DNA of 64,000 bases from Candidatus Altimarinota bacterium (lineage in GTDB: Bacteria > Patescibacteriota > Gracilibacteria > BD1-5 > UBA2023), in assembly GCA_023260135.1 (NCBI GenBank), contig JALQWG010000002.1, positions 52,440-116,439 on the forward strand, read 5' to 3'. Every line of letters starts with the position of its first letter. Position 1 is the stretch's first letter. The notes beneath the pieces were generated by a model. The model was given only the letters and a program-made list of their open reading frames with translations. It was not told the origin of the DNA and did not search any database. Below are positions 37,165 through 64,000 of the stretch, piece after piece. The position numbers and the translations under genes were made by a program.

Positions 37165-39786
37165 TTAATGCACAAGTGTGTGCTTCATGAACTTCTTGCG
37201 AAGCTCCATAAATATCATCGGAATGAGTGAAAAGAGGAGGATGATACCCCAATCCTTATATCCGAGTGGTTCTGTACCAAGGACAGAGTTCAGGAATGGG
37301 ATATAGACGATCGCGAGGACGAGAAGGACTGAGAGTGTCACCGCCCCGAGATGGTAGAGATTCGCGAGGTAGTTCGTCTCGAATATAGAGCGAGTCGGTG
37401 CAATAGCGGAGAATGTATTGACCATCTGGATGATCACGAGTCCAGCAAAAGCGGCTGTTACAGCGTGCTGCCAGTTGCCATTGTCTATCGTACCATATGT
37501 CCAACCATCACCGAGAAGAGTGATGAGGAATATCCCAACAACACAGAGTCCGATGGTGATACCCGTGATGATAAAACTCATGATGAACTTCCGATTCACG
37601 ATACGAGCACGAGGGTCCCGAGGAGGCATCTTCATGTTTTCTCTATCTGCTGGCCCGACTCACATCGCGATAGCAGGGAGGATATCTGTACCGAGGTTGA
37701 TACAGAGGATGAGGACGGCAGTGAGGGCATTCGGGATAAAAAATATAATTGATGCGGTCACTGTCACGAGTTCACCAGTATTGGATGAGAACATGTACCA
37801 GATGAATTTTTTGAGATTTTGGTATATGCGTCGACCTTCCTCGACTGCCTTCACGATAGAGGCAAATGAATCATTCATGAGGATCATGGTTGCTGATTCC
37901 TTGGATACCTCAGTTCCTGCGATTCACATGGCGATACCGATATCTGCCTTTTTGAGTGCTGGAGCGTCATTGACTCCGTCACCAGTCATGGCGACGACTT
38001 CTCCGAGTTCCTGGAGGAGTGATACGATACGCATCTTGTCTGCTGGGAGTGCGCGAGAGAATATGAGAGATTCTTTGCGTGCGAGAATCTTTTTTAATTC
38101 TTCATCTGATATCTTCGCGACATCCTCTCCGACGAATACGTTTTGGAGTTCTTTTTTTGCATGATCTCGGCCTATAATCTTCGATATGATACCAAGTTCC
38201 TTACCTATGGCGCCTGCAGTGATGCCGTAGTCACCGGTGATAACGATGACACGGATACCAGCGTCCTTGCATTCTCCTACTGCGACCTTGGCTTCTTCAC
38301 GAGGTGGATCGATCATACCAACAAGACCGATGAATGTGAGTCCTTCTTCTGCTTCGGTTTCATCTTTTGGTGTTTTTGTATATGTTCGCTCAGCAAATGC
38401 CAGTACTCGGAGTGCCTGTTCTGCCATATGAGTATACTTGTCTCGGATATTTTCGAGGTCAGTCTCGGTCATCACACGTACCTCTGTACCGTCATCGATA
38501 TGTGTACAGTGTGCGAGCACATGGTCAGGAGATCACTTGACGAGGATTTTTCACCCTGCGAGAGCACTCATCATCTTGCGATCCGAGTCGAATGGAAATA
38601 CTCCATCTAGTTTTTTGTCTCCACTGATTGTTCCTGGATGTATCTTCTCCACGAGTGTCATGAGGGCTCACTCGGTCGGATCTCCGAGCATGATATAGTC
38701 GTCATCTTTTTCGGTGAGAGAGGATTCGTTACACTTCCATGCTATGTTTGTGAGCTTCGTGAGGAGGGGGTCAGTTGTATCTCCAGTGATCTTGCCATGA
38801 GTTGGATCATATCCGACACCACTGACACCAATATGCTTGCCGTCAGCGAGGTGGATGACACGTACGGTCATCTCATTCTTCGTCAGAGTTCCTGTCTTAT
38901 CCGAACATATGGTTGTCACTGCACCGAGTGTCTCGACGGAGGAGAGTTTTTTGACCACGACTTTTTTTCCTGCAAGGACGGATGCACCGAGTGCGAGTGC
39001 AATAGTGATAGTGGTTGGGAGTCACTCAGGAACTGCCGCGATAGCGATAGAGACGGCATACATGAGGTTGTCGACAAATGCTCCTGCTCCGTCGCGGTAC
39101 ATCGATATCATTAATATGATGATACAGATACCGAGCGTGAGCTTGGCAACGAACTTTCCTATGTTTTTGAGTTCTTTTTGGAGTGGAGATTCGACCTTCT
39201 TAGTCTCGACGGCGAGTCGTGCAATCTCACCGAATCGCGTTGCGCTACCAGTTTTGGTCACTTCATAGATACCACTTCACTTCGCGATACCCGTTCACAT
39301 ATAGACTTCGTCTCCTATTTCTTTGCCGACTGGAACACTCTCACCCGTGAGTGCTGCTTCCTCGACACGGAGCGAGTGTGACTCGATGAGTTTTCCATCT
39401 GCTGGTATCTTGTCTCATTCTCCGAGGATAACCATATCTCATGGAACGAGTTCCTTCACACTGATCTTCTGTTCTCATCCATCACGATATACTCGTATCT
39501 CTGGGAGTATCATCTTCTGGAGGGCTGCGAGAGTTTTTTCTGTGCGGAATTCCTGGAAGAATCCGATGAATCAGTTCAGGAGGATGATAAAAACTATCAC
39601 GAGCGTATCGACAACTTCACCATGATATCCCGATATCATCGCTGCGATGATGAGGATGATGACGAGGATGTCACTAAATTGGCTCGCGAGCATCTTGTAC
39701 CAAGGATTTTTGTTTTCTGCCTTGAGTTCGTTGGGTCCGTACTGGAGGAGGAGCTTTTGTGCTTCGGCGGTGGAGAGTCCCTGCAT
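37165..39786 (-). CDS. P-type (P2, Ca2+/cation) transporting ATPase (873 aa)
   Basis: Phosphorylation site CSDKTGTLT; hinge [21 protein letters not shown]; TGD. Six standard-code fragments are all in one frame. TAA stop at 37165-37167. Confidence 0.92.
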
Positions 39787-47162: not shown

Positions 47163-47849
47163 TTAGGATATTCTATTCTTAAAATATTGATTGAGTGTGA
47201 GAACTAGTGGTATATCTGTCTGGAGTATGATTCATTGCACTCAGTGTTTTGCAAATAACTTTTTGTGAGAATCATGTACTCTCTCGACAGATTCTCGATA
47301 GCTATGTATGTCGACTCAGTATCACTCGAGGATTGGTCAACGAGTTGGATTGAGTTCATATGGATGAACGAGTTCGATGGGAACGATATCATTAGAGTGA
47401 GCAAGTCATCATATGAGCTCTTGGGAGAGTGTATCTCAGAGTCAATAGAGGACAATTACCATGGAGTTTTTTATGATCTGTAGTTCATTGGTGTTCCTGA
47501 GTTGTCTATAGGGAAAGTGGTATTGTCTCGCAGATGACTGTAGTATCTCTATGAGGGTATTGCGGTACTCTGAGACAGATGGATTGGTATCTATCGTGAA
47601 GTTCCGTTCTTCTCCGATGAGATCTACGAGAATAACTTCAAAATTCGATTCTTCTTCGCGGATTTTTTTCTCTATGGTATTGTGTTTTGCTGTATGAATC
47701 CACGATATATCGCGTATATCATCTCAGGGGCTATAGGGTCATATGTCGAGGACGTCAGTTCCACGTCATCTTTTTTTTATCCATGATGCACCTCATGTTG
47801 TATGTGTACGGATTTTTCTCGATCGAAATAATACAGAGTGTTGTTCCAT
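47163..47849 (-). CDS. DUF58-family protein (228 aa)
   Basis: Translated codon by codon. KKRGRGTDVLDIGPYSPGDDIRDISWIHTAKHN...EVILVDL matches the DUF58 core G.G.EF..R.Y.PGDD.R.IDW..TAR. TAA stop at 47163-47165. Same frame as the upstream gene, 1 codon after its stop. Confidence 0.6.
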
Positions 47850-49072: not shown

Positions 49073-50935
49073 TTACATCTCACTTGGCATCTCGATACCG
49101 AGGAGGTCGAATGCCTTTTTGAGCGTCTCTGCAGTCTCATGTACGAGTGTGAGGCGGAAGTCACGGAGTGCGGTACTCTCTTCTTCGAGGATCTTCGGAG
49201 TATGGACATAGAATCCATTGAATGTCACCGCGAGACTATACGCGTAGAGTGCGATATGATGAGGCTTGTAGGTCTTGGCTGTTGTATCGACTGCGTCAGG
49301 AAATAGTGCAAGTGACTGGATAAGTGACTTGTCGTAAGACGAGAGTTCTAGAGTATCAGGAGACTCCTTGGCAGAAAAATCTGCTGGTAATATCTTTTTT
49401 GCGCGGACATATGCATACTGGATATATGGACCAGAGTTCCCCTCGAATGCGAGTGCCTTGTCCCAGTCGAATGTCACATCTTTTTCTCTATCTTGTGCGA
49501 GGTATGAGTACTTGATAGCTGCAACAGTGATAGCCTGTACATCACTCGGACTGAGTCTCTTGTCTCATGTTCTTCACTTTTCTTCGAGGATTTTCTCTGT
49601 ACGTTCGTTGCCTTCTTCGATGAGCTTCTCGAGGAATATCACTGTTCCATGACGAGTCGACATAGCACCTTCCTTGAGCTTGATAAAACCATTGAACGCA
49701 TGAAAAAGCTCGACTCACTCTGTGAGTTCTGGCCATGCCATACGAGCAATAGTGAATGCTTGCTTCAGGTGAAGTTGCTGACGAACATCGACTGAATAGA
49801 CTATCTTCGATGGATTCCAGCCATTGGTGAGACGATACTTGATAGCTGCGAGATCAGAGGTGAGGTAGAGTCATGTTCCGTCCTTTTTCTGGAGGATACA
49901 TGATGGCATCTTGGACTCCTCAGGAAATACTACACCCACACTTCCATCCTCATTCTGTGTTGCGACTCACTTCTCTATGAGTTCCGCGACGATACTCTTC
50001 ATATTGAACTCCAGATCTGGATAGTCCTCTCCATTCGGGCGGGGAAGTCCGAGTCACTCATAAAAACTCTCACCGATATTGTATGTTGCATGGACATTCA
50101 GGAGGTCGAGCTTCTTCTCTGTCTCAGCGATAGATATAGAGGTGAACTTCTGCCAGAGTTTAGTATTTTTCTTATGATATCATTGTTCTTCGTCCGTTGC
50201 TAGATTGATTCATGAAAGATATTGAAATTCAAGACGAGACCATCACTCCCTCTTTATATGTTCAGTTAAATCATCAGAGTGAATAATTTCAAATTGTTGA
50301 TATAGTCTTAGTAATAAATTCACTCATTCTTTATCCAAGAGTTTTCATAAAATAACTTCTCGATCTTTCGATAATGTATCCAGAAAATCATATTTTTCTA
50401 CCCATTCGGCTGTGACAATCTGTTTTAAATCTAAATATTTCCATCCCCATATCAGCTTCCCAAAAATCCCACCCCAATCACCGAAATGCGAGTCACCGAT
50501 TACATTGTAACCAAGGTGACGATACGTATTACAGATAACTTGTCCGATAGATGGAGTACAGATATGTCCGATGTGGAGTGGTTTACCGACATTGGCACCG
50601 ATATAGTCGACGACGATGGTTTCTCAGTTTTTCGTTTTTGGTGATTCGTTTTTCGTTGATGCAAAGAGGTTCAACCATACTGCATCCGTAAGGAAAAAGT
50701 TCACATACCCACCATTAGCACTCGTCGAGACGAACACATCTGTGTGTTTTGCGAGTTCGGTTGCAACCTCTTCTGAGATGAGATTCGGTGCTTTTCCTGC
50801 GGTCTTCGCGAGAGGGAATACATTGATGCAGTACTCACCGAGTTCTGGCTTGGGTGCGACGGATATCTCGGGTGTATAGTCAGAGTTGTAGAGTGACCTC
50901 AGTGTACTCGTGATGAGGGAATTGATAGTGTTCAT
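49073..50935 (-). CDS. argS: Arginyl-tRNA synthetase (620 aa)
   Basis: HIGH motif PLHIGHICT; GDSHFGDWG; C-terminal DALR domain ending GIEMPSEM. I checked 49441-50623 triplet by triplet and found no TAA or TAG. TAA stop at 49073-49075. Confidence 0.9.
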
Positions 50936-50980: not shown

Positions 50981-51466
50981 TTAGAGTTTTGCTGTTTCCA
51001 GGAATTTTTGATTTCAGAATACATGATCATCGATAAGTAAGGCTTGTCCAGATTCTATAAGATTAAGAACATCTCCTTTTATCTTGTTTCTGTATACTTC
51101 AGTTTGTTTGAATTTCTTACATGCTTGTTTTACCTGCAGAACATTCGTTACACATAGAAGCGCCTTGTCATTGTGTGCGGACAATATATGTTCTATGAGT
51201 TGATTCGAGAGTCACTGTCCGCGGTATTGTTCCAGAACAAATAAACTTCACCACTCGTAGATGTTATTTCAGAGTGGCATTACTTTTATGAATCAAACTA
51301 AGATTCCTTCAATATATATTCCATAAGCAGTCTTTAGTTTACTCCACTCGTAGAGAGATTCTGCAGTTACAGGCATCATATGTGGACTTTTTTTATTTTC
51401 TTCGGTGATACCGTTAGATATTACTGTGCAGTCTTGGAAGGTTGGGTGTCAAAATGTTGTTTTCAT
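50981..51466 (-). CDS. GNAT family N-acetyltransferase (161 aa)
   Basis: Motif A LFVLEQYRGQ[G]LSNQLIEHIL, with 6 TGA. TAA stop at 50981-50983. AT-rich. Confidence 0.65.
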
Positions 51467-51471
51467 ATATT

Positions 51472-52317
51472 TTAGGGATTAGTAATAATTTTTCAGAGAT
51501 AACACCACTCTCATCAGTTTTCTACAGATGAATTCGGCATGATTATAAGTCATGTATATGGTGATGATATTGATTTATGGGAGATTAGATTTTTTCAGAT
51601 AATTTCATCCTTTTCTATAGGATCAAAATTTTTCCATGCGTTTATGAAGATAAAATCCTCTTGTTTTCTGATAATAGTATCGACAGATATCCATATTTGA
51701 TTTTTGTGAAGAACATTTTCTCATTCTTTGATGATGTTATAGCTCTTGAGTGCTGAAAAGATGCAGGCATATGCCGTGTCTATACTCTGACTATCTTCGT
51801 TTTGTCAGCATTCTATAGTGATGCCGGGGATATTATTTTTCTTGGCAAAACCTATCGTGTCTAACTCTTGTAGTCATGTGTATAGCTCGGTCCATCATAT
51901 CATCACATGTTCGATGGGAATGGAGTGTATAATAGTATTTACCTCTTCCGTATTGTAATCATTGAATATAAATGCTTCTTTTCATGCAGAAAAGGAATGT
52001 AAATCTAAAACAAAATCACTTTGGAGAATCAATGATTCAATATATCTTGCTGTATCATGGATACCTCATTGCTCATCTTGTCAGAAAATACGATTGAGAT
52101 TATGAGTGATTTGTCGTTTTTTCTCTCTATATGCTTCATAATTTGCATAGGGAATACATGTTATTTTCCCGGATATTAGGGTAATATTTCACTGAATTAT
52201 ATCTTCCCGTAAGCGCTCTATGGCCATAGATCCACATACCTCATCACCATGAATCGATCAGAGTATGAGAATATGTTTTCCTGCTATTCCAGAGTCAAAA
52301 GAATAAGATATCTGCAT
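51472..52317 (-). CDS. Succinylglutamate desuccinylase / aspartoacylase (AstE/AspA) family zinc deacylase (281 aa)
   Basis: IL[G]SIHGDEVCG and LDLHS zinc-ligand motifs. TAA stop at 51472-51474, 5 nt before the GNAT start codon. Confidence 0.65.
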
Positions 52318-52500: not shown

Positions 52501-54003
52501 TTATATCTTTTCCACTCTCCATCCATTCTTTTCATCGATCATTTTCCATCATTTTGATGCGAGCTCATCACGGATTCTATCGGCTTCTGCCCAGTTTTTT
52601 GCCATCTTGGCGTCATATCGGTCGAGTGCGAGAGCTTGTATATCAGCAGGGAGTGACTCGGACTCTAGGAGTGAGAAGTCGAATATGCCGATAACTTCGT
52701 TCCAACTCCTCATGAGATCTACGAGGGAACGTGCTTCGAGTGGGGAGAATAGTTCTTCATCTATACCAGAGTTCACATATCCCTGGAATTCGAATACTAT
52801 GGTCATGGCAGATACCGTATCGAAGTCATCTTCGAGCTTGTCTACGAATTCCTGCATGAAGTATTGTTGGTTATCTCGGAACTCACGAGATATCTCATGG
52901 AACTTGAGTTTGCCTCGTCCTGTACGTTCTTCGCTTGTCTCCGGGAGTTTTGCTATATAGCGTCCGAGTCGCTTCATCATCTCATCGAGTCCGCGGATAG
53001 TATTGACAGCTGCACCGAGACGCTCGAATGTGAAGTTAAAATTCTCTCTGTATTGGTTCTGGAGTGCCATGAGGCGGAATCCACGATAGATGAGTTCTGG
53101 GGCTGTATCTGATTGCTTCTCAACTACATCACGAAGCGTGTAAAAGTTACCTGCAGACTTCGCCATTTTCTTGTTATCTACGAGGAGGTGCCCACCGTGC
53201 ATCCAATACTTGGAGAATTGTTTTCCAGTATATGCCTCTGTCTGAGCAACTTCGTTCTGATGGTGCGGGAAGAGGTTATCGATACCACCCATATGTATAT
53301 CTATCTGCTCACCGAAGAATCGGTAGTTACACGCACTACACTCGATATGCCAGCCTGGACGTCCATCGAGTTTCTGAGTTTTTCCATCGAGAGTTATCTC
53401 GATAGTCCACTTATTTGGACCATCAGATTCACTATCATATGCCTTCCAGAGTGCGAAGTCTGCAACTTGATCCTTGTCGTATTCATCATTGTTGATACGT
53501 ACAGAGGATATCATTCCGCTCATATCCAGGTGTGCAAGTTCACCGTATTTTCGGAACTTGGATACCGAATAATAGATGCTTCCATCCTCAGCGAGATAAG
53601 CATATCACTTATCGAAGAGTCACTGTATCATCTTCCTCATGTCTGTGATGAGGGTTGATATTGGTGCTATCGTATCTGCATGACGTATTCCCAGTTTTGA
53701 TAGGTCAGTGAGGAATTCTCCTGCATAGAATTCGGTGAATTCCTGGAGAGTTTTTCTGGATTTTTGACTATCACGGATGGTTTTATCATCGATATCGGTG
53801 ATATTCATGACAGTTTTAACCTTGTATCCGAGGAATCTGAGTGAGCGCACAACAAAATCCGAATTCAGATAGGCTCTGAGATTCCCGATATGTGCATAGT
53901 TATACGGTGTTGGTCCACAGTAGTAGACTTTTACCTCATCTTGGCGGATTGGCTTGAATCGTTCAGTTGTACGAGTGAGAGTGTTATAGAGATGGAGGCT
54001 CAT
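52501..54003 (-). CDS. cysS: Cysteinyl-tRNA synthetase (500 aa)
   Basis: CGPTPYNYAHIGNLR (HIGH) and KMAKSAGN (KMSKS variant). Fragments 53620..54036 and 52549..53523 share a frame. The TGA at 52549 reads through to the TAA at 52501-52503. Confidence 0.92.
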
Positions 54004-54104
54004 GGGGATATACTTAGTATTCGCTTCAATATACATAAAAACACAGAAAAATCGAATGTATTTTCTCTATATATTTGACACTTTATAAAATTATTGAAAT
54101 ATTA

Positions 54105-54133
54105 TTGACATATGTAAAAATATGAGCTATAAT
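54105..54133 (+). promoter_or_regulatory. Consensus sigma70-type promoter
   Basis: TTGACA (54105-54110), 17 nt, TATAAT (54128-54133), 25 nt upstream of the ATG at 54159. AAAGG Shine-Dalgarno-like element at 54151-54155. Confidence 0.5.
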
Positions 54134-54158
54134 TATTATGTTCTTTTTGTAAAGGTAT

Positions 54159-54617
54159 ATGAAACATCCTCAGTACCAGAGACACCATAACTATAGTGTC
54201 GAGTGGCTTCAGGCAATGTTTACTCTCATGGTTCTCGTAGGAATCTACTACGCTATGCCGTATTTTGACTCATACGAGACGAGCCTCGTACCAACAGAGA
54301 AACCATCTACACCAGTGACATACTGGAATGACTCTCTCTGATATGGATTCCAAGGCTGATCATGATATGTCTATGTTCCTGAGACAACACCAGACAATGA
54401 TACTGTACAGATACAGTCAAAAAATGGACTTGTCTACAATGATTCGGGCGTGAGAGTATCTTTTTATTCTGATGCCACTATCGATGAAGTAGAAAAAAAC
54501 CATAATTCTGACCTTCCTCGTACGTATTCACGTCTTCCTACTGGAATAGCAGTGATCGAATGAGATCTCGCTTCTCCAGTAGCCAAAAATGTCCTCGCTA
54601 CTCTGCACTCTCGTTAG
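54159..54617 (+). CDS. Hypothetical membrane-anchored protein (152 aa)
   Basis: The fragment 54159..54341 is extended through 4 TGA to the TAG at 54615-54617. One TM helix. Confidence 0.4.
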
Positions 54618-54638
54618 TCTCACACCCATCTGTGTTTT

Positions 54639-54733: not shown

Positions 54734-55160
54734 GGGGATGATATAGGATTCGAGGAAAAGAATCGTATGTTATATATGCTCTCTCGGGGCTCCTCGCCTC
54801 GTTATCAAAGGGGAATCAATAGATGCAAAAACATCTCCACTTTCTCGCCTCGCTTCATTCATGAAGGGTGGTGTTGCTGTTGCTGCCTAACCGCTCAACA
54901 GTGTAGCCTTGTCTTAGACATGAGTGCCAGATGGCCTGCTACATATTTCACTTTCGGATACTGGTAGGGAAGTGTCATATTTTCCAGTTTCTCACTGATC
55001 TTAGTATAGGGAATTCGTAGGATGAGAATATCAGAAAACCTATTTTCCAAGAGCTTTTTGTTCGTTTTTTATTTTTGGAAATATCAAAACCGAACTACAG
55101 GGAGTAGATGTATATGGTGTACCTTTTTCGACGCGAGGGCAGTGCTCGCCATCTCCACCA
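54734..55160 (+). ncRNA. ssrA: tmRNA (SsrA), about 427 nt
   Basis: 5' GGGGATGATATAGGATTCGAGG matches the GGGGxUGAxxxxGGAUUCGAC consensus. The 3' end is GACGCGAG-GGCAGTG-CTCGC-CATCTCC-ACCA. The acceptor has a G3-U70 pair. Candidate tag ORF is ...GCT TCA TTC ATG AAG GGT GGT GTT GCT GTT GCT GCC TAA (ASFMKGGVAVAA, TAA at 54888-54890). Confidence 0.8.
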
Positions 55161-55175
55161 GTTTTAGAACAATAT

Positions 55176-55207
55176 AAAATACCTCCGATTAAATCGGAGG
55201 TATTTTT
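55176..55207. terminator. Terminator hairpin H1 after ssrA
   Basis: AAAATACCTCCGATT-a-AATCGGAGGTATTTT. Confidence 0.65.
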
Positions 55208-55361
55208 AGTATTATACGTATTCAAAAGTTATGTTTTTGGCTATTTGTATATTTTGCAGTATTTTGACAAAAAATTTAATTTATTGTAAAATAAATTAGT
55301 GTCAATAAATAAAAAACCACATCACAGGAATATATCATCACATTATCCATCAGGATGAAAT

Positions 55362-58193
55362 ATGAGGGTGATTCCACGTATCACAGAAGATGCCGCCAGG
55401 CTTATGTCATGAAAACTCTCCATCAAGGATGTGAGAGAGATCGCACGATATAGGCATTATTATCCTCTCGAGGATACCAAGGAGTGGCTAGATTCTTTTG
55501 ATGTACAATGAATTGATACTATCATGAGATTTACTCCTGATTGGTGGACACGCTGGAATATACTAGATACGGCAAATTCTGTTGCATGACACCTTCTTGA
55601 TAAAAAGCCTGATCTTCTTAAGGATTTTGTAGAGATTATCATCGAAACATTGAAAAGTAATCAGGTAGATAATGCGGATAATTTTCAAAATAGTAATACC
55701 TTTTCTTTATTGCAGCGTTTTAAAATCAAATATAATGAGTTAGACAAATATAGTGAAGAAGAATATCTGGAATTCTATAGGAGATATAGTCGTGTTATCT
55801 CATTATTTGCTGATATAGAATCCTATAAAACCGATAGTATACTCGAGAATCTCCTCAGATCATGAGCCTGGAAGAATTATTTTCTCTGGCTCGAACTCAC
55901 TTGAGTGGAAGCTAATTTTATAATGGGATGAGATCTTCCATGAATGTTAGAGATCTTTAGGCAAATTCATGAGGATGAGATACGGTCTCTTGCACTTATC
56001 TGTGATAAGAAATCCTTTTGAAGATATTCCAAGAATCTACTAACATTTTATCATAGATCAAAAAAGATATTTCGATCCGATCATACAAAAATATGGGAGA
56101 GAATAAGGATGTCTTTTCAGGATAACCCTCTCGGTTCAATTTTTTTTGAGAGTGGAGTCTATCTTTCTGAAAATACTGAGGATGCTAATAGGGAATTATT
56201 TTTCTCACGATATATGTCGGAGATAGAGTTTTTATGAGATCTTTGAAGAAAAATACAATCAAAACTTGATCGTTTTGGTTTAGAAAAACTTTTATGACTT
56301 CGTAAAAAAATAAAAAAGAAATATTGAGAGAGTGATGATGTATGCTCCTCGGTACTATGAGTTCTTGCATGAATCCACACAGAATATCTGAGTGACTATA
56401 TTAAGGCAATTGATAAGAATCTTGATATCCTCCCTCCTGTTGATAAATTGCAAGAATTGATTCTCGAATCCGAGAGACTCGGAAATAAGATTCGAAACCC
56501 ATTTGAAGCAAGACACGAATGTTTTCTCAGTTATCTTATTCGGTTCCAGCGTATCCGAGAGAGTAGACATGACCTAGAGCGATTCATCGATAAGATATGA
56601 GGTCAGTATATCGTAAATGTTATAGATAAGCTCCCTCAGGAATATGAGTCCAACTGGCATGAGAACCCTCTCTACGAGAGATCGATCCAGACAAAACTTA
56701 TCAATCCAAATAATCCAAAAGAAGACTTACTTGATACTTCTTCTATATTTCTCAGTCTTGGAAACAATGGTCTGGATATCGCGCAATGTGAGAGGCTCTA
56801 TGCTGATATGTCCAAGTCAAAAGATGCCTATACAGACCTTAATAATTTCTATAATAATTGATGAAGGAATCAGGCTGATTTTGCCTCAATGGCAAGCCTA
56901 CTACAGTTCCGACCCAAGAGCTATCGAAGAGTCTTGCGAAATATTTTTCCTATATTCCATGAGTATGTGAGAGATATATCATTCTCATCATTTTTTCGAC
57001 ATGTTCTCTGGAAAAAACTCAACCCCAATCAACTCCAGGAATTACGATGAGAATGAGGGGGATCGTATAGAGAGAGGGTCACATCACTGTGTTATTTTCT
57101 CTGAAAAGATCCATCTGAGTACGAAAAAGCATGGTTATGATTCCAAAAGGCGACACAATTTTATCCAGATATATCTAGTAATATTGATAAATTCAGGCAA
57201 TTTGAAGACTTACTTATTACCCTCGAGACTGAGAGTATGAACAAGAAAGTTTGTGATTATTATATTCAGAATGCATGACTGGATAAAGAGGAGCTCACTC
57301 CAGATATGCTTGCAATTGATGCAATCATGGTGATTATAAAGTCTTTGGTAACAAATTATAGCAACAAAGAAATATGAAAAAAATTGCTGAGAAAAATGAT
57401 CGCAAAAAAGAATGAGCCGTTTTCATATAGTTGGGATGAATCAAAAAACCAAGAGTGGTTTGACGAAAACCTGACCCTATTACAAAATAAGCTGTGGAAT
57501 AGTGAAAATAGGAAGACATATCCTGTGACGTCTGAATTCCGGAAGACAGATGAGACTATGCTCTCTGAAATCAATAAGTTTCTCAGAGTTGCAGAAGGTC
57601 TTGTGGATTCCTTATGACTTTCTCTTGAGATCAATACGCAAGACTATGAGATATTTTTAGTAGAGCTTGCAGGATTTTTTGAAAAAAACCCAACAATTGA
57701 TATTCAGATAAAGAAAAATATAGAACTCCAGGCAGCTTCTATAAAACGAGTATTAAATAGATGAAAAGAGAGATCTATCCGTGAAGTTAGTATTTATCAT
57801 GAGATAAATACTTCGAGGATTGTTATGATGGGTGATTGGGTTGATGGTTCTTGCTTGTCTTCATCTAGTAATATCAAAAATACTTGGTCAGTGATTGCTA
57901 ATGCCTGTGAATGAAATAAAGGAGTTTTCTATGCACAAGATGAAAAGTGAAATATACTCTGAAGACTTTTGGTTGCAATAGATTCCCAAAATAGACTTGT
58001 TCTATTTTGAGTATATACAAAATGATCTCCTGATATTGATCTTCAGAAGGTATTTGAGAGGTATATTCGTGATTTTTCCAGAGATATAGAGTTGAGTCTC
58101 TGATGAGATCCAAAAAAGGTGGAAAAAATACTCGATTGTGATTGGTATATTGACCCAGTATGGACTGAGGTCTCTCCGATAGTTAGTAGATAG
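55362..58193 (+). CDS. Large orphan protein (943 aa), AT-rich and TGA-dense
   Basis: All 48 sequence lines were checked codon by codon: ATG 55362, TAG 58191-58193, 32 in-frame TGA, no TAA or TAG. Standard-code fragments 55650..55865 and 57384..57617 lie in this frame. I recognise no domain. Confidence 0.7.
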
Positions 58194-58228: not shown

Positions 58229-58260
58229 AAAATATCTCCGATTAGATCGGAGATATTTTT
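58229..58260. terminator. Terminator hairpin H2, paralog of H1 (bidirectional, between the orphan ORF and the histidine kinase)
   Basis: AAAATATCTCCGAT-tag-ATCGGAGATATTTT. Confidence 0.65.
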
Positions 58261-58262
58261 GA

Positions 58263-59531
58263 TTATTTCATCTGTATCACAAAACTCGTCCCAACTCACT
58301 TCTCACTCTCTACCTCTATAGTCCATCCATAGAGTCTCACAATTCGTTCGACAATAGTGAGTCCGATACCTGTTCCAGGAACCTTGCCAGTTCTATCTGC
58401 CCGGTAGAATCGTTCGAATATTCGCTTGCTTTCTTCCTTAGTCATACCGATTCCTGTATCGGTGATGGTGAGTTTTTTTCCTGAGGCTGTGATAGAGATA
58501 GTGCCACCATCCTTGTTATATCTGATGGCATTGGATATGAGATTCGACAGGAGTATCTGGAAGTGTTTTTTCTCTATGGATACCTGGAGCTTCTCGGGGA
58601 TATCGAGTGTAGTTGTGAGGTGCTTCTTCTCGATATTCTCAGATTGGAGTGAGAGGGTTTCTTCTATGTTTTCTCGCAGATTCAGCGTGGTTGTGCTCGT
58701 TGGTGCCTGTAGATTCGCGAGCTCTACGAGTCAGTCGATGGAGTCTCACATAGAGTGTATGGTTGAGATAGATTCTTCGATGATATCCTTGTCTGGGATT
58801 TTGCTATCTCGGAGTATCTGGAGATTGCCTGATACTATCGCGAGTGGAGTCTTGAGCTCGTGTCCAGCATCGTGGATGAAGTGAGACATAGTGTCGATGT
58901 TCTTTGCAACAGGCTCGAGTGTGCGCTCAACATAGTATCGTCCGATGAAGTAAAACGGTAATATAAGGGCTATGTCTATCATGAGGAATCTGAGGATATC
59001 TCGGAGGATATCATCGAGTGGATAGCCAGATTTTTTGAAAAATATGACACTGTATTCCTCGTCTCCTATTTTTTGCTTCTTCTTGAGGAGGAGAGTCCCA
59101 TCATAGGTGATGATAACATCTGGTTGTAGTGTACTAAGCGTAACAGAATCAATAAACTCAATAAACTCCTTGGCATCAATATTGCCACGTACCTCCATGA
59201 TCTCTCCAGATCCATTGAGAATAATAGAGTTGATACCAATACGAGCTGGTCCTGAACGCTTGGTTCTCTCTATTGGTCATTTGCCTTCGATGATTCACTT
59301 GATATCTCCGATGAATTCTTCCTTCTGGAACCTGTCTTCTAGTATGAGACGTGTCCCGATAAAAAATGCCTCAAATAAGAGTAAAAACGTAAAAGCTCAT
59401 ATCACAAAAATAGATATGAGTCGACGTTCTGTCCGGAGAAGGGAAGAGTCCTTTTCCTTTTCTCTGTATTTTTTGTTATTTTTCCAGAGGTTTTTGCAGG
59501 ATGTTTTGAGTGTATTGAGGTGGTTTTTCAT
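58263..59531 (-). CDS. Sensor histidine kinase (422 aa)
   Basis: H-box HDAGHELKTPL; N-box LSNLISNAIRYN; G1 DTGIGM; G2 GTGIGL. Two TM segments flank an extracytoplasmic loop of about 120 aa. TAA stop at 58263-58265. Confidence 0.85.
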
Positions 59532-59539
59532 AGTATTGA

Positions 59540-60202
59540 TTATGCACTGAGACTATAGCCGATTCACTTGTGCGTCTCGATGACGTGTGTTCAGAGCTTC
59601 TTGCGGAGGTAACCGATATAGACTTCGACCACTTTTTGGTCTGCCCAGGCATCGTAGATTCACCAGATTTTTTCTGCGAGTTCTGTTTTGGAGAGTATAC
59701 GTGGTGAATTCTGCATGAAGTAGAGGAGGAGTTCGTATTCACGTTTTGAGAGATCTATGGTGTCTCATGATTGGGTGACTTCATGGTTTTCCTGATTGAT
59801 GCGGAGGTCTCCGATTTCAATAATCTCAGTGGATTTCTGATTGTTATTACGACGCGCGAGTGCCCGAATACGCGATGTGAGTTCGCGATAGTCACATGGC
59901 TTCACGAGGTAGTCATCGGCACCATAGTCGAGTCCTGCAATGATATCATCCTGGGTGGCACGCGATGTGAGCATGATTATGGGTGTTGATTTTCACTCAG
60001 CTCTGAGCTTGCGACAGACCTCGATACCGTTCATATTCGGAAGCTCGATATCGAGTATGATGACATCATAGTTGTTCTGTACAGCTTCTGAATATCACTC
60101 TACTCAGTCAGTTCTGAGAGTACAGCTGATATCCTGACTCGCGAGGTAGCGTGTGACAGTCTGTGCGAGGGTGATGTTGTCTTCGATGAGGAGGGTGTGC
60201 AT
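59540..60202 (-). CDS. OmpR/PhoB-type response regulator (220 aa)
   Basis: Receiver domain: LLIEDN, ILDIELP, LTSR, VKP. Winged-helix C-terminus LSKREYELL...IETHK[G]IGYSL. TAA stop at 59540-59542. Confidence 0.9.
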
Positions 60203-60360
60203 AGTGTGTAGAGATTATAGATATTGGAGGTTTTTTTCCAAATGAATATCTCGATGATATCCCCGCAATGTAAGAAAAAAGTAAGAATACTTTTTGGCTT
60301 TTTTCTTGCTTTTCATACTCTTTTTTATAATATACGTCTCGTTATTTATAGTATTGGATT

Positions 60361-60966
60361 ATGGCATTTACCATCGATCGAGAGTGAGCTGCTGCTCGTC
60401 TCGGAGTCTCATCTCGAACTATCGACCGCCACATACAGGCAGGACGTATACGTACTCGTCGTATCGGTAAAAAGATGTTCCTCGAAGATGAGGATGTTGA
60501 ACTCCTCAGGAATCAGGATAGTGCGCGCAAGGCTGACGACTATGTTATAATTATGGATAATCAAAAAGATGCTCCAACTCAGGAGATAATTCATCCTCGT
60601 GATGCCTCTACAGGACTCTCTCCTGTTGATGTGGCTGCTGTGACCGAGCTCGTACGTCTTTATGAGGAGACGCGCACTATCATCGCAGAAAAAGACAATA
60701 CCATAAAAGACCTCTCATACAAGCTCGGAAAAGTTGAAACTGAGCTCCGCAACACGGTACCACTCGTCGACTATAACAAGGCTACATTCCTCCTCGAGAC
60801 TGCAAAAACTCGTCAGGTAGAAGATGCGAATTCACTCCAGACCAAGATAGAAACTCTCGAAAAGGAGGTCAACAAGCGCAATGGTGTTATCCTCTCGATT
60901 ACGCTTCTTTTTATTCTCGTTCTTGGATTCTCTATTGTATTCTTCTTCTCATCTCAGTTCATGTAG
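60361..60966 (+). CDS. Excisionase/MerR-like HTH protein with a coiled coil and C-terminal TM anchor (201 aa)
   Basis: N-terminus MAFTIDRE[G]AAARLGVSSRTIDRHIQAGRIRTRRIGKK. C-terminal hydrophobic helix. TAG stop. Confidence 0.55.
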
Positions 60967-61002
60967 ATGAGTTTTTTTATGTTTTTTTCTCTCTAGATTC
61001 CT

Positions 61003-61731
61003 ATGAAAAAGTATCATACCCCCAAGCGTATTCTCCTCAAGCTCTCTGGTGAAGCACTCCAGTGAGATCAGTGATATGGAATTGATCCAAAATTTCTCAC
61101 ATTCCTCGCGAAAAAAATAGTATATCTCGTGAATAATGAGAAACTCGAGATAGTTGTGGTTGTTGGTGGTGGGAATATATTCCGATGAATAGAGCTCGAG
61201 GCTGGTGGATTCGACCGGAGTACGGGTGATAGCATGGGAATGCTCGGTACCATCATCAACTGACTTGCTATCTGAGAGGCTATCGAGAAGCAGTGAGTCG
61301 ATGTTCGCGTCATGACTGCAGTGCCAACTGATAAGGTTGCAGAGCCATTTATCAGACGTCGAGCCCTTCGTCATATAGAAAAGGGGAGAGTGGTTGTCTG
61401 TGTTGGGGGAACAGGGAATCCATACTTCACGACCGATTCATGTGCCGTACTCCGTGGACTCGAACTCGACTGTGATGTAGTGGTCAAGGCTACCAAGGTA
61501 GACGGTATCTATGACAAGGATCCAAAAAAACATACTGATGCGGTACGTCATGAAGAACTCCATATGCATGAAGTCCTCAAAAGGGATATCCGAGTCATGG
61601 ATCAGGCAGCCATAGCACTCGCTCATGATGAAGGAATCCCTATCTATGTCTGTCGTATCGAGGATATAGATACACTGGCAACAGAACAAAATGTTGGAAC
61701 CTACGTTCACTGAGATAAGAGAGACCGATAA
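61003..61731 (+). CDS. pyrH: UMP kinase (242 aa)
   Basis: ILLKLSGEAL, VVGGGNIFR[G], GTGNPYFTTDS. The fragment's TGA at 61711 reads through to the TAA at 61729-61731. Confidence 0.9.
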
Positions 61732-61758
61732 AAAATCCCCGATATTCGGGGATTTTTT
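61730..61758. terminator. Bidirectional terminator
   Basis: AAAAAATCCCCGA-tat-TCGGGGATTTTTT. Confidence 0.6.
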
Positions 61759-64000
61759 ATTCTCATGGGATAACCTTGTATTTTCCTGTTGCTTGGCGTT
61801 GTGTACCGTCCGCATAGGTTGCAGTGACAGTTACACTATATTCTCACGCCTTCTCAAATATATGCGTAACAGATATGCCGCGTTGACTCGGCGTATTGTC
61901 AGAGAATGCCCAGGTGTATTCCTCCACCTGTCATGCATCACCTGTGATGCTAAAATCCACAGGAACGCCTACTATTCATGGAGAGAGGCTCGGTATGAAC
62001 TCTACAGTTCTTGGAGTTTCCTTGAGTACTATTACCTTTTTGATAGAGGCAGTATTTCCAGCATCATCGATGATGGTGAGGCGTATTTCTTTTTCTCCTG
62101 GAGTGCTATATGTATAGCTCTGTACAGCATCACCTACGGCATCCTGTTTTCCTTCACCGAAGTTATAGATGAACTTGATAATCTCATTATTCTCTGACCA
62201 AGACTGTGATGCATCAACTGTGACTGTAGTTGGTATATAGTCAGAGGTCTGGAGGAGCGTGAGGCGTGGTATGAGAGTTTTTCTCTCCACATCGATAGTG
62301 ATGCTATCAACTGCGATCTTTATTTCAGGGTTATTTCATGGTACTACTTTTTCAAATGTATAATACCCGAGTATTGTGTAGCGATATGTATTCGATATTG
62401 TAAAACTGACTCGTTCGCCCACCTTTTCTATATTGGTTCTACCATCGGAGAACTTCCAACGTACTTCCTTGAGTTCGTATCCAGGATTCTCTGTGACAAT
62501 ATCTCGAGCATCGAATACGAGTGTATCCGGTGGGATAATGCTATCGATGATATATGTTTTGAGTATCTCATCATATGATTCCTCAGGGTTGAGGAGAGTG
62601 TTATCACTTCCATATACCTGAGCATGTTTGAGGAGGCGAAGGGGTTCTTCTACTACAACATCTTTTTCTATCTCGTACGAGTTACCATTACTCATGAGGA
62701 TTTTTACTTTTACCGAGTTACGTCCGTAGTTTCAGAAGTTGTACTTACAAGTATTCACTTCATTTCTACAGATGATAATACCATCGTTGACACTCCATTC
62801 TATATCTGTGATAGAGTTCCTGTCCGACGTTATTCCTGTGAGGTACATAGTGTATTCTTTTGCATCGATAGTGGATTGTACGAGTTCTATCGTGGCATCT
62901 CCTGTGAGGATATCTCTTTTTTGTATGAGAAATATTCTCTCAGGAATAGATGTAGAGATTCTGAGGAGGATGAACAGTGGTGTCTCACTTGGTTTTTCTG
63001 TTATGGTTGGGGTTTTGACAGACTTTCCAGTATTTTCATAGATCCATTCTACATCACCGAGGAGGGCAAGTTTCCTCGCATCGAGAGTGATGATATCTTC
63101 ACCTGATATGTTTTTGTCTTCCTTGATATCTATGAGTCCGCGTATCTCGACTGCTTGGAGATCCATAGGTATCTCTATCTCTTCACTATTGATATCTGTT
63201 CCATAGTACGTTCCACGGACATTATAGTTTTTTATCTGGTCAAAAGTACAGATAATTCACTGTTCTTCCTTGGGATTTGTTCCGGTGACAACACTCCTTC
63301 CGTCAGCACAGACCGCGCCATCGAAGTTGATCTCGTAACGTTCTATCTTGATACCGTTATTGATCTCATATGCCTTGGCATTGCCTCTGATATCATAGCG
63401 GAGTGATATTGGTCCTATCATATTCTGGGTTTTTGATACCTGTGCGTATGGCTCAGAGAGAGGATTAGAGTAGAGGATATTGTCATATACTCAGATTACA
63501 CCACCATCCCAGACGATTTCACCGATTTTTTTGAAGAGAAAAATCCAAAAAGTAAGAATAGAAAAGAGGAGTATACCAACGAGTGTTGCTACCATCCATG
63601 CGAGTATTTTTTTACGCTTCTGTTCTCGGGGAGTCCATATCGCACGAAAAAGCGCCACCATCCACACAATCGATACGACGAGCATGATGATGCCAAAACT
63701 TCCGTTGATGAACTTGCGGAGGAGGGTTGCTACGTCCTTGGTATCTATACCGAACATGATGATGAAGAACTGTGCTTCTCCAGGATTGAATACGATATAA
63801 GCGAGAAAACTCGCGAAAAATATCACCCCAGTAAAAAAGAGGGCACCTATAGCCTTGAGTATTGTTCCCGGTGGAAGTGGTTGTCTTGGTTTTTTTGATG
63901 GAGGAGGAGTTACTCCTGGGCTCGGAGGAATTGGTGGAGTGGCATCAATATTGGTAGGTGTTGCCGTATCTGCTGATGTTGCATTCCCTGATGTTTCTTG
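61757..64000 (-). CDS. Large membrane-anchored surface protein with PKD-like repeats; the N-terminus is outside the window
   Basis: Fragments 61976.., 62336.., 62732.. and 63491.. all share one frame and are joined by TGA. PKD-like motifs FIYNFGEGKQ...YTYSTPGEKEIRLTIIDDAGN and WAFSDNTP. TM helices at 63491-63826. TAA stop at 61757-61759. Confidence 0.6.

What the first reader, a model, noticed from the sequence alone, without database searches (positions are those of the whole stretch)
55362..58193. A 943-aa orphan ORF hidden by 32 in-frame TGA codons, directly downstream of tmRNA
In the standard code this 2.8-kb stretch shows only scattered ORFs of about 110 aa or less in several frames. In code 25 a single frame runs from the ATG at 55362 to the TAG at 58191-58193 with no TAA or TAG. 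I verified every codon on all 48 lines. The DNA is clearly more AT-rich than the flanking housekeeping genes, so an open frame this long by chance is very unlikely. By my count, 32 of 47 Gly residues (about 68%) are TGA. The protein looks mostly helical. Its C-terminal region of about 150 aa is distinct: IVMMGDWVDGSCL...NACE[G]NKGVFYAQDEK[G]NIL[G]RLLVAIDSQNRLVLF[G]VY. I cannot place it in any family. Location beside ssrA, atypical composition and bracketing paralogous hairpins all suggest an accessory, lineage-specific function.
Basis: seen in the sequence. Interest (0 to 1): 0.8.

Follow-up and report, generated by a model that had tools for sequence, protein, structure and literature searches.

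The report
Recoded accessory gene with GNAT-like domain
This is a genuine gene for a ~110-kDa protein in a Gracilibacteria genome that reads TGA as glycine; it is not an orphan but belongs to an unnamed protein family whose conserved tail resembles an acyltransferase fold, and it sits in a frequently rearranged spot next to the tmRNA gene.

Summary
Window 55362-58193 (+) is one frame of 943 codons with 32 TGA, no TAA and a terminal TAG, which is far beyond chance (about 1e-24). It lies 200 nt after a tmRNA gene that Rfam confirms.

An exhaustive HMMER search found 257 homologous clusters. One is full length (37% identity). Many are 700-1400-aa proteins from recoded CPR bacteria, DPANN archaea and high-GC bacteria. 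These share its C-terminal ~290 aa.

TGA codons fall on columns that are glycine in standard-code homologs, so the code-25 reading is correct.

Two AlphaFold models give the C-terminal module pLDDT above 90. It is a helical subdomain followed by an alpha/beta domain, and that domain's structural neighbours in the PDB are almost exclusively GNAT-fold acyltransferases. The matches are weak, there is no CoA-binding motif, and an invariant Cys/Glu/Asn-Lys/Arg set is present instead.

No Pfam, NCBIfam, PHROG or PADLOC family matches.

The true start is probably GTG 55299 (964 aa).

Related Gracilibacteria keep CysRS-u175-tmRNA but lack this gene, and they carry other cargo at the same site.

Verdict: a real accessory gene and a new, divergent GNAT-like family of unknown activity.

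The parts
54734..55160 (+). tmRNA (ssrA) gene immediately upstream
   Evidence: Rfam RF00023, 81.2 bits, E=6e-30, full model. The CysRS-u175-tmRNA arrangement is conserved in 7 related Gracilibacteria.
55176..55207 (.). Hairpin 1: A-tract / 14-15-bp stem / T-tract, the intrinsic terminator of tmRNA. It is copy 1 of a 32-nt direct repeat.
   Evidence: Folds at -19.6 kcal/mol, z=-6.2. The tmRNA terminators of relatives have unrelated stems.
55264..55292 (+). Sigma-70-type promoter TTGACA-17-TAAAAT
   Evidence: 11 of 12 matches, the best site in the region. The -10 box ends 6 nt before GTG 55299, and -10-like boxes 5-12 nt before start codons are typical of this genome.
55299..58193 (+). Preferred CDS: 964 codons, GTG start, 33 TGA (Gly), TAG stop
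   Evidence: The frame is open from 55290. The public gene call P0001 has the same extent. Homology with P0002 covers residues 17-956, including PSG[TGA]N against PGGN upstream of ATG 55362.
55362..58193 (+).
   Evidence: The AGGA 6 nt upstream looks like a Shine-Dalgarno motif, but only 3 of 36 genes in this genome have such a motif.
55362..57311 (+). N-terminal ~650 aa: all-alpha, poorly conserved region (26-37% identity to the only full-length homolog)
   Evidence: AF2 model: helices only, pLDDT mostly below 60. Identity by segment. No signal peptide and no clear TM segment.
57312..57770 (+). Helical subdomain of the conserved C-terminal module (aa 651-803; conserved N668, N696, W712)
   Evidence: pLDDT 82-97. 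The same subdomain appears in the model of homolog P0017, pLDDT 92.
57771..58169 (+). GNAT-like alpha/beta core domain (aa 804-936). Invariant or near-invariant residues: E814, M823-G824, S830-C831-L832, N840, S843, N847-A848, N852-K853, R868, Y885, Y901, W928-Y929-x-D931.
   Evidence: Conservation over 127 sequences. Foldseek neighbours are GNAT-fold proteins. TGA codons at aa 863, 867 and 915 fall on Gly columns. The Cys831 codon TGC is at 57852-57854.
58229..58260 (.). Hairpin 2: a bidirectional intrinsic terminator between the convergent ORF and the histidine-kinase gene. It is copy 2 of the 32-nt repeat, 29 of 32 identical, with a compensatory C-G to T-A change in the stem.
58263..60202 (-). 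HisKA histidine kinase (58263-59531) and OmpR-type response regulator (59540-60202). Together with the ORF they form the ~5.1-kb segment that is absent between tmRNA and the w_201 homolog in relatives L012 and L050.
   Evidence: Pfam families of the called genes. Synteny comparison.

Best explanation
What it is. The stretch is a genuine, independently transcribed gene of a Gracilibacteria (BD1-5) genome that translates TGA as glycine. It has its own promoter, a short or absent leader, and its own terminator.

The product. It encodes a soluble, acidic, cytoplasmic protein of ~110 kDa. The protein belongs to an unnamed family present in recoded CPR bacteria, DPANN archaea and some high-GC bacteria.

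Architecture. Family members combine a long, fast-evolving all-helical N-terminal region with a conserved ~290-aa C-terminal module. That module is a helical subdomain followed by a ~130-aa alpha/beta domain with a GNAT-like (acyl-CoA N-acyltransferase-like) fold.

Proposed mechanism (inferred). The N-terminal helices select a macromolecular partner. The C-terminal domain then carries out a group-transfer or hydrolytic reaction on it. The reaction would run through the invariant Cys831, sitting in the alpha1-alpha2 loop that forms the acceptor site in GNAT enzymes, helped by the invariant Glu814, Asn852-Lys853 and Arg868. This chemistry would be Cys-centred rather than classic CoA-pyrophosphate-loop chemistry.

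Genomic setting. The gene is accessory. It lies in a variable segment at the 3' flank of ssrA, and a duplicated copy of the tmRNA terminator hairpin brackets it, which suggests insertion by recombination at that hairpin.

Shown: the gene is real, TGA = Gly, family membership and conservation, the fold prediction, and the accessory location.
Inferred: enzymatic activity, the catalytic role of Cys831, the target-binding role of the N-terminus, and the mode of insertion.
For: Coding and genetic code:
- The open frame has a chance probability of ~1e-24.
- Of 31 aligned TGA codons, 19 face GGN or TGA in the 39%-identical homolog gene, against a 3.4% background.
- TGA at aa 863, 867 and 915 falls on columns that are Gly in 71, 79 and 46 of 102 standard-code homologs.
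- TGA aligns with conserved Gly in ArgRS.
- The whole window is recoded.

Expression signals:
- Promoter with 11 of 12 matches, plus terminators.
- -10 boxes lie 5-12 nt before start codons in this genome.

Family:
- 257 clusters with E<=1e-3. P0002 is full length with E=4e-165.
- Near-invariant residues are listed.
- Members are annotated only as 'hypothetical protein' in Ca. Absconditicoccus praedator and a Woesearchaeote.

Fold:
- The C-terminal 300 aa have pLDDT above 90 in the model of this protein. An independent model of homolog P0017 reaches 92.4.
- Foldseek top PDB lists are essentially all GNAT-superfamily. Examples: PaiA prob 0.99 with TM 0.47; RimI and AAC(3) TM 0.50; FemX E=0.03.

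Cytoplasmic: no signal peptide or TM segment.

Accessory location:
- CysRS-u175-tmRNA is conserved in 7 relatives. In L012 and L050 the tmRNA is followed directly by homologs of window genes 60361-60966 and 61003-61731, at 53-83% identity.
- No homolog of the ORF lies within +-10 kb in any of the 80 CysRS-anchored loci fetched (about 40 of them Gracilibacteria-like MAGs).
- The same site holds photolyase, type I HsdR, AAA_14/DUF4143 or HxlR genes in other relatives.
- The hairpin duplication is specific to this genome.
Against: - No Foldseek PDB match reaches E<=1e-3, and TM scores are at or below 0.50.
- The beta4-alpha3 loop lacks the Q/R-x-x-G-x-G/A CoA-binding motif. The domain stops after beta5 and a short tail, so helix alpha4 is missing.
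- No GNAT Pfam model matches any of 40 family members, even at E<=10.
- No conserved gene neighbourhood points to a substrate.
- The window protein has Thr at the near-invariant Pro817.
- No expression data exist.
- No integrase or transposase lies in the inserted segment, so the insertion mechanism is conjecture.
Confidence: 0.5

Rival explanations
1. Non-catalytic scaffold or adaptor. The GNAT-like domain is a pseudo-enzyme or ligand- or protein-binding module. The invariant residues maintain a binding surface, and the long helical region acts as a repeat-type scaffold.
For: The CoA-binding loop is missing and the GNAT fold is truncated. No GNAT HMM matches. About 70% of the protein is helical with low conservation.
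Against: The polar and nucleophilic set that is invariant in 123-127 of 127 sequences across bacteria and archaea (Cys, Glu, Asn-Lys, Arg; Asp in 120) is more typical of an active site than of a binding surface.
Confidence: 0.2
2. Effector of a conflict system (defence or counter-defence), carried by a mobile element and distantly related to PcfJ-like proteins of phages and conjugative plasmids.
For: The best BFVD structural hits include several 'PcfJ-like' phage proteins (E 7.6e-4 to 2e-2). PcfJ has a comparable ...EG..L.HC.G... then beta-meander layout. The gene sits in a hot spot that holds type I restriction genes in relatives. Other family members lie next to an rve integrase or ParDE toxin-antitoxin genes. 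There is a weak sub-threshold hit to CTD10 of ABC-3C systems (E=0.027).
Against: Profile-profile comparison with a narrow and with a broadened PcfJ alignment gives probability 0.1-0.2%. There is no Pfam PF14284 hit. There is no PADLOC hit for the protein or for 9 homologs. PHROGs gives no hit. tblastn finds no homolog in 50,697 phage records or 72,556 plasmids, nor in IMG/VR. No partner genes are conserved.
Confidence: 0.2
3. A translation-linked modifier. The GNAT-like domain uses aminoacyl-tRNA or acts on a translation component, by analogy with the Fem, MprF and ATE1 GNAT-fold transferases.
For: FemX is the best PDB hit (E=0.03), and MprF and ATE1 are also listed. The neighbours of family members are often translation genes: tmRNA here, RF1 and Obg, ABC-F, GatB/aEF1A/S10.
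Against: The FemX alignments have rmsd of about 18 A. The neighbourhood pattern is post hoc, involves separate transcription units, and comes from small genomes rich in translation genes. P0002, P0106, P0052 and P0012 show no such neighbours.
Confidence: 0.1
4. Not a functional gene: a chance open frame, a decayed pseudogene or an assembly artefact.
For: No expression data. AT-rich with an unusually high TGA share.
Against: The chance probability is ~1e-24. Full-length homology has E=4e-165. Catalytic-type residues and Gly positions are conserved. The same sequence appears in three further assemblies.
Confidence: 0.01

Closest known systems
GNAT-fold (GCN5-related) acyl-CoA N-acyltransferases, e.g. 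PaiA 1tiq, RimI 7n1l, AAC(3) 1bo4, GCN5, and the aminoacyl-tRNA-dependent FemX 1ne9
   Same: The predicted C-terminal domain has the beta1-alpha1-alpha2-beta2-beta3-beta4-alpha3-beta5 order. Its structural neighbours in the PDB are almost exclusively this superfamily. A helical region precedes the alpha/beta domain, as in malonyl-CoA decarboxylase and FemX.
   Different: The matches are weak (E>=0.03, TM<=0.50). There is no Q/R-x-x-G-x-G/A pyrophosphate loop and no alpha4. No GNAT HMM matches. The conserved residues (Cys831, Glu814, Asn-Lys, Arg868, Trp-Tyr-x-Asp) are unlike any GNAT signature I know of (own knowledge). The domain sits at the end of a ~650-aa helical protein.
PcfJ-like proteins (Pfam PF14284) of conjugative plasmids and phages
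   Same: Foldseek against viral models ranks several PcfJ-like proteins near the top. Both have a conserved Gly...Cys motif before a three-strand beta-meander at the C-terminus of a larger helical protein. The function of PcfJ is also unknown.
   Different: No HMM or profile-profile support. The motif is H-C-V-G in PcfJ and (S/T)-C-L here. There are no homologs on phages or plasmids.
Hypothetical proteins WP_231176292.1 (Ca. Absconditicoccus praedator) and MBT6774120.1 (Woesearchaeota), with the other ~255 clusters
   Same: True homologs. They share the whole C-terminal module with the same invariant residues.
   Different: Only P0002 (37% identity) shares the N-terminal region. The others have unrelated or unalignable N-termini and lengths of 650-1400 aa.
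Genomic islands integrated at the 3' end of ssrA/tRNA genes
   Same: The position is immediately 3' of tmRNA. The segment is absent from the same site in relatives, the cargo at that site varies between genomes, and a direct repeat flanks the gene.
   Different: There is no integrase in the segment. The repeat is the terminator hairpin, not the 3' end of the tmRNA. The repeat brackets a single gene of 3 kb.

Membership tests
Protein-coding gene read with genetic code 25 (TGA = Gly) | The frame is open only if TGA is sense, and is far longer than chance allows | tested here: met
   33 in-frame TGA and no TAA or TAG in 964 codons. P is ~1e-24, and the shuffle maximum is 237 codons.
Protein-coding gene read with genetic code 25 (TGA = Gly) | TGA codons align with glycine (not Trp) in homologs | tested here: met
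   In the P0002 gene, 11 TGA codons face GGN, 8 face TGA and 1 faces TGG. Gly is the majority in standard-code homologs at aa 863 and 867 and the commonest residue at 915. ArgRS control.
Unnamed family defined by the C-terminal module (hits) | Significant sequence similarity over the whole ~290-aa module, with the invariant residues present | tested here: met
   82 clusters with E<=1e-10. E814, G824, S830-C831-L832, N852-K853, R868, Y885 and W928-Y929-x-D931 are all present. Only Pro817 is replaced, by Thr.
GNAT superfamily | Characteristic alpha/beta topology beta1-alpha1-alpha2-beta2-beta3-beta4-alpha3-beta5-alpha4-beta6 | tested here: inconclusive
   The DSSP strings of both models match through beta5. 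Alpha4 is absent, and only a short C-terminal strand follows.
GNAT superfamily | Significant structural similarity to solved GNAT proteins | tested here: inconclusive
   The top lists are nearly all GNAT, but the best E is 0.03, TM is 0.45-0.50, and no match reaches E<=1e-3.
GNAT superfamily | Q/R-x-x-G-x-G/A pyrophosphate-binding loop between beta4 and alpha3 | tested here: not met
   The loop reads F-G-V-Y-T-K-G-S-P-D-I-D-L. The family consensus is F-x-x-Y-x(5-8)-L, with no conserved Gly pair.
GNAT superfamily | Match to a GNAT sequence model (Pfam Acetyltransf_1 and others) | tested here: not met
   No such hit for the protein, for 8 homologs, or for 40 members at E<=10.
GNAT superfamily | Binds acyl-CoA and transfers the acyl group | not testable with these tools
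   Needs biochemistry.
PcfJ-like (PF14284) | Match to the Pfam model, or profile-profile similarity | tested here: not met
   No PF14284 hit. hhalign probability is 0.1-0.2% against two PcfJ alignments.
PcfJ-like (PF14284) | Structural similarity to PcfJ-like proteins | tested here: inconclusive
   BFVD hits have E of 2e-3 to 2e-2, but TM is 0.14-0.25 and rmsd exceeds 20 A.
Integrase-mediated genomic island at ssrA | Located at the 3' flank of tmRNA and absent at that site in related genomes | tested here: met
Integrase-mediated genomic island at ssrA | Flanking direct repeats derived from the target | tested here: inconclusive
   A 32-nt repeat at 91% identity brackets the ORF, but it is the terminator hairpin rather than the tmRNA 3' end.
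Integrase-mediated genomic island at ssrA | Integrase or recombinase gene inside the element | tested here: not met
   The segment 55208-60290 holds only the ORF, a histidine kinase and a response regulator.
Known anti-phage defence systems (PADLOC) / ABC-3C CTD10 | Match to a defence-protein model above threshold | tested here: not met
   PADLOC gives nothing for the protein and nothing meaningful for 9 homologs. CTD10 scores 15.5 bits against a cut-off of 28.1.

The most novel reading that the evidence does not exclude
The C-terminal module defines a previously unrecognised enzyme family: a minimal GNAT-like fold that has replaced the CoA-binding loop by a Cys/Glu/Lys/Arg centre. On this reading the family is spread by horizontal transfer among ultra-small symbionts (CPR bacteria, DPANN archaea) and some free-living bacteria. 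It would carry out a new covalent modification of a cellular or invader macromolecule, possibly a translation component, given the tmRNA, RF1, ABC-F and GatB neighbours.
Probability: 0.2. Interest if true: 0.6.

Novelty: new variant of a known kind. Interest (0 to 1): 0.4.

Why it matters
- Annotation. Standard-code or code-4 pipelines shatter or mistranslate such genes. The public copy of this protein carries Trp at all 33 TGA positions, which hides glycines that are conserved family-wide.
- A new family to define. The work turns an apparent orphan into a member of a definable family of ~260 clusters at 50% identity, with a high-confidence fold model and a short list of candidate catalytic residues. 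The family is missing from Pfam, NCBIfam, PHROGs and PADLOC, so it is a concrete candidate for a new domain entry and for biochemical testing.
- Genome plasticity. The tmRNA 3' flank is shown to be a cargo-swapping site in Gracilibacteria, holding photolyase, type I restriction genes, regulators, or this gene. That is useful for finding accessory functions in these reduced genomes.
- If the Cys-centred GNAT-like domain proves to be an enzyme, it would be a new chemistry on an old fold, shared by CPR and DPANN symbionts.

Tried and rejected
- Curated libraries. Pfam, NCBIfam, PADLOC, PHROGs and PDB-sequence searches with the code-25 translation gave nothing above threshold. The same libraries on homologs also gave nothing.
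- Word-indexed protein search. It returned only the window's own protein. With a domain alignment it returned only one fragment.
- Tool restrictions. I used the database copy P0001, in which TGA is read as Trp.
- PDB profile searches. The only result was a weak, probably spurious match to ribosomal protein S8 (E=0.011-0.026).
- PcfJ lead. It came from BFVD hits. I tested it with pCF10 PcfJ plus 17 homologs, and with 9 added phage PcfJ-like sequences. There was no profile-profile signal, so I rejected membership.
- Other collections. tblastn against phage and plasmid collections found nothing. Pattern scans of GTDB genomes, JGI metagenomes and IMG/VR for close relatives found nothing. One alignment was too diverse for scanning.
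- dN/dS among strains. This was impossible because three other assemblies carry an identical ORF. The 37% homolog is too distant for dS.
- Paralogs. An HMM of the domain found none in the window or in the 80 CysRS loci.
- Literature. PcfJ searches were swamped by C. elegans pCFJ vectors, and nothing functional turned up.
- Shine-Dalgarno argument for ATG 55362. I rejected it because only 3 of 36 genes here have such a motif.
Full report
1. The observation

Window 55362-58193 (+) translates with table 25 into 943 residues. The frame has 32 in-frame TGA, no TAA, and one TAG at 58191-58193. With table 11 the same stretch contains 33 stops. Gly is encoded 32 times by TGA and 15 times by GGN, so TGA supplies 68% of Gly codons.

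Given the local base composition, a run of 964 codons without TAA or TAG has a probability of about 10^-24. In 500 shuffles the longest open run averaged 116 codons and never exceeded 237. The other five frames carry 23-56 TAA/TAG.

The ORF has 35.4% GC against 42.0% for the window.

Rfam finds a complete tmRNA at 54734-55160 (+) at 81 bits. ARAGORN does not report it.

All long ORFs of the window contain in-frame TGA, so the whole genome is recoded. In ArgRS, TGA aligns with conserved glycines of the E. coli enzyme.

2. Gene boundaries and signals

The best sigma-70-like site in the region is TTGACA-17-TAAAAT at 55264-55292, with 11 of 12 matches.

The frame is open from 55290, and a GTG lies at 55299, 6 nt after the -10 box. 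This genome almost lacks Shine-Dalgarno motifs (3 of 36 genes). Its -10-like hexamers pile up 5-12 nt before start codons (12 of 35 genes), which indicates short-leader or leaderless mRNAs.

Homology with the closest relative continues upstream of ATG 55362. The window reads P-S-G-[TGA]-N-M-R-V-I and P0002 reads P-G-G-N-I-R-V-I. P0002 has no Met at that position. The public gene call P0001 also starts at 55299.

I therefore prefer 55299-58193 (964 aa, 33 TGA), with roughly 0.6 confidence.

Two 32-nt hairpins lie at 55176-55207 and 58229-58260. Each has an A-tract, a 14-15-bp stem and a T-tract. They fold at -19.6 and -18.3 kcal/mol, with z of about -6. They are 29 of 32 identical, with a compensatory C-G to T-A change in the stem. 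They are the only copies in 64 kb.

The first hairpin terminates tmRNA. The second serves the ORF and the convergent histidine-kinase operon.

3. Not an orphan

Curated libraries give nothing for this protein: Pfam, NCBIfam, PADLOC, PHROGs and PDB sequences. The word-indexed protein search found only the window's own product, stored with Trp at each TGA.

The exhaustive HMMER search against 1.84 billion representatives found 257 proteins with E<=1e-3 and 82 with E<=1e-10. P0002 (955 aa) aligns over residues 17-956 at 37% identity, with E=4e-165. Nearly all other hits are 650-1400-aa proteins that match only the last ~130-300 residues, at their own C-termini.

Many hits are Trp-rich and Gly-poor, meaning they are recoded genomes translated with code 4. 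Others come from standard-code low-GC organisms or from high-GC bacteria. Two carry names: hypothetical proteins of Ca. Absconditicoccus praedator and of a Woesearchaeote. One lies on a 1.2-Mb archaeal-type contig.

None of the homologs tested has a relevant Pfam, NCBIfam, PHROG or PADLOC assignment.

4. Evidence for TGA = Gly and for selection

In an alignment of 127 C-terminal regions, the TGA codons at aa 863, 867 and 915 fall in columns that are Gly in 71, 79 and 46 of 102 standard-code sequences. Recoded relatives show 'W' (that is, TGA) or G there.

I also compared against the P0002 gene (L004:1197-4064). Of the 31 window TGA codons that align, 11 face GGN, 8 face TGA and only 1 faces TGG. 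The background chance of Gly at a non-Gly position is 3.4%.

Identity to P0002 rises from 26-37% in the N-terminal 650 aa to 45% in aa 650-800 and 58% in aa 800-943.

Three further assemblies contain an identical ORF, so within-population dN/dS cannot be computed.

5. The conserved module and its fold

These positions are invariant or nearly so across the 127 sequences:
- E814, P817 (Thr in this protein), M823-G824
- (S/T)830-C831-L832
- N840, S843, N847-A848, N852-K853
- R868 (127 of 127), Y885, Y901
- W928-Y929-x-D931

AlphaFold2 on P0001 with 63 sequences gives pLDDT above 90 for residues ~660-955. The N-terminal 470 residues are low-confidence and all-helical. An independent model of the standard-code homolog P0017, built with 40 sequences, reaches pLDDT 92.4 and pTM 0.87 with the same layout. 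That layout is a helical subdomain followed by beta-alpha-alpha-beta-beta-beta-alpha-beta.

Foldseek against the PDB returns almost only GNAT-superfamily proteins for both models. Examples are NatD, serotonin N-acetyltransferase, GCN5, AAC(6'), FemX, PaiA (prob 0.99, TM 0.47, rmsd 4.0 A over 115 columns), RimI and AAC(3) (TM 0.50), MprF and ATE1. However, no match has E<=1e-3.

The beta4-alpha3 loop lacks the GNAT pyrophosphate-binding motif, helix alpha4 is absent, and no GNAT HMM matches.

I therefore call the domain GNAT-like in fold, but I do not file it as a GNAT family member.

The invariant Cys lies in the alpha1-alpha2 loop. Glu814 ends beta1 and Asn-Lys begins beta2. In a GNAT sheet these ends are adjacent, so a Cys/Glu/Lys(/Arg) centre is plausible. 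That is inference, because I had no coordinates to check it.

The protein has no signal peptide or convincing TM segment, and its pI is 5.8.

6. The PcfJ lead

Against viral models, the best matches include several 'PcfJ-like' phage proteins (E 7.6e-4 to 2e-2), with poor superposition.

pCF10 PcfJ has a superficially similar EG..L.HCVG motif followed by a beta-meander.

Profile-profile comparison with a PcfJ alignment, and with one broadened by nine phage sequences, gives only 0.1-0.2% probability. There are no homologs in phage or plasmid records or in IMG/VR.

The resemblance remains a hint about fold, not about membership.

7. Genomic context

The CysRS of the window is 66-80% identical to that of Gracilibacteria MAGs, which places the organism in that group.

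In seven such genomes the order CysRS - u175 - tmRNA is conserved. In L012 and L050 the tmRNA is followed directly by homologs of window genes 60361-60966 (53-54%) and 61003-61731 (75-83%), and then by the 689-aa PKD-type gene.

The window thus carries about 5.1 kb extra between the tmRNA terminator and that promoter. The extra segment holds the ORF, a HisKA kinase and an OmpR-type regulator.

Other relatives carry different cargo at the same place:
- L015: DNA photolyase plus membrane proteins
- L022 and L018: type I restriction HsdR
- L018: an AAA_14/DUF4143 ATPase
- L013: an HxlR regulator

No homolog of the ORF lies within +-10 kb of CysRS in any of the 80 loci.

The tmRNA terminators of relatives have unrelated stems, so the hairpin duplication is specific to this genome. 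It brackets only the AT-rich ORF. The kinase and the regulator have ordinary GC (42% and 47%).

This fits insertion of the single gene by recombination at the terminator. No integrase is present, however, and the donor must itself read TGA as Gly.

Neighbourhoods of other family members are not conserved. Several include translation genes (RF1/Obg, ABC-F, GatB/aEF1A), and others include an integrase or ParDE. Both patterns are post hoc and weak.

8. Verdict

Solid points:
- The gene is real, read with code 25, and independently transcribed.
- It is a member of an unnamed but widespread family.
- Its C-terminal module is confidently folded with a GNAT-like core.
- It occupies an accessory position in a variable tmRNA-flanking locus.

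Inferred point: it is an enzyme using Cys831, with the helical N-terminus as the target-recognition part. I put this at about one in three on its own.

High TGA usage and AT-richness are shared with other low-GC genes of the window and are not special.

Interest is moderate. The 'orphan' disappears, but what replaces it is an uncharacterised, cross-domain family with a testable active-site hypothesis.

Noticed in passing
window, all gene starts (e.g. 37165-39786, 49073-50935, 59540-60202): Shine-Dalgarno motifs are almost absent (3 of 36 genes). TATAAT-like hexamers cluster 5-12 nt upstream of start codons (12 of 35 genes). This suggests that leaderless or very short-leader mRNAs are the rule in this Gracilibacteria genome.
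   Followed up: partly
window 54734-55160: ARAGORN fails to report the tmRNA that Rfam's covariance model finds at 81 bits. The same holds for the divergent tmRNAs of relatives, which score 54-94 bits.
   Followed up: partly
L015:5163-8616, L022:5870-8680, L018:1490-5777, L013:7283-8713 (3' flank of tmRNA in related Gracilibacteria): The tmRNA 3' flank is a cargo-swapping site. Different genomes carry photolyase plus membrane proteins, type I restriction HsdR, an AAA_14/DUF4143 ATPase, or an HxlR regulator. L012 and L050 have nothing there.
   Followed up: partly
window 54102-54629 (-): A 175-aa Cys/Trp-rich protein with no family assignment sits between CysRS and tmRNA. It is conserved in that position in at least 9 related Gracilibacteria at 28-39% identity.
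   Followed up: no
window 53757-53935 and 58896-58904: Differences between this window and other assemblies of the same organism (L001, L003) are clustered in the 5' part of CysRS and in a 9-nt patch of the histidine kinase. There are none in the 2.9-kb ORF. This looks like short recombination tracts or assembly-end effects.
   Followed up: no
window 47163-47849 (-), 51472-52317 (-), 50981-51466 (-): Other AT-rich genes without family hits also use TGA for 50-81% of their glycines, against 26% on average. The gene at 7443-8678 has no TGA at all. TGA usage therefore tracks low GC and probably low expression.
   Followed up: partly
window 60346-61815 (-) versus 60361-60966 (+) and 61003-61731 (+): With TGA as sense, long spurious antisense ORFs appear. 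One is a 489-aa frame opposite two real genes that are conserved in relatives. Code-25 ORF maps need homology checks.
   Followed up: partly
L005:7065-11279; L006:8001-15153: Family members in other lineages lie next to an rve integrase (on an archaeal-type 1.2-Mb contig) and near a ParD/ParE pair and a large Tubulin_2-domain protein (on a high-GC bacterial contig). This hints at mobile or conflict-island contexts.
   Followed up: no
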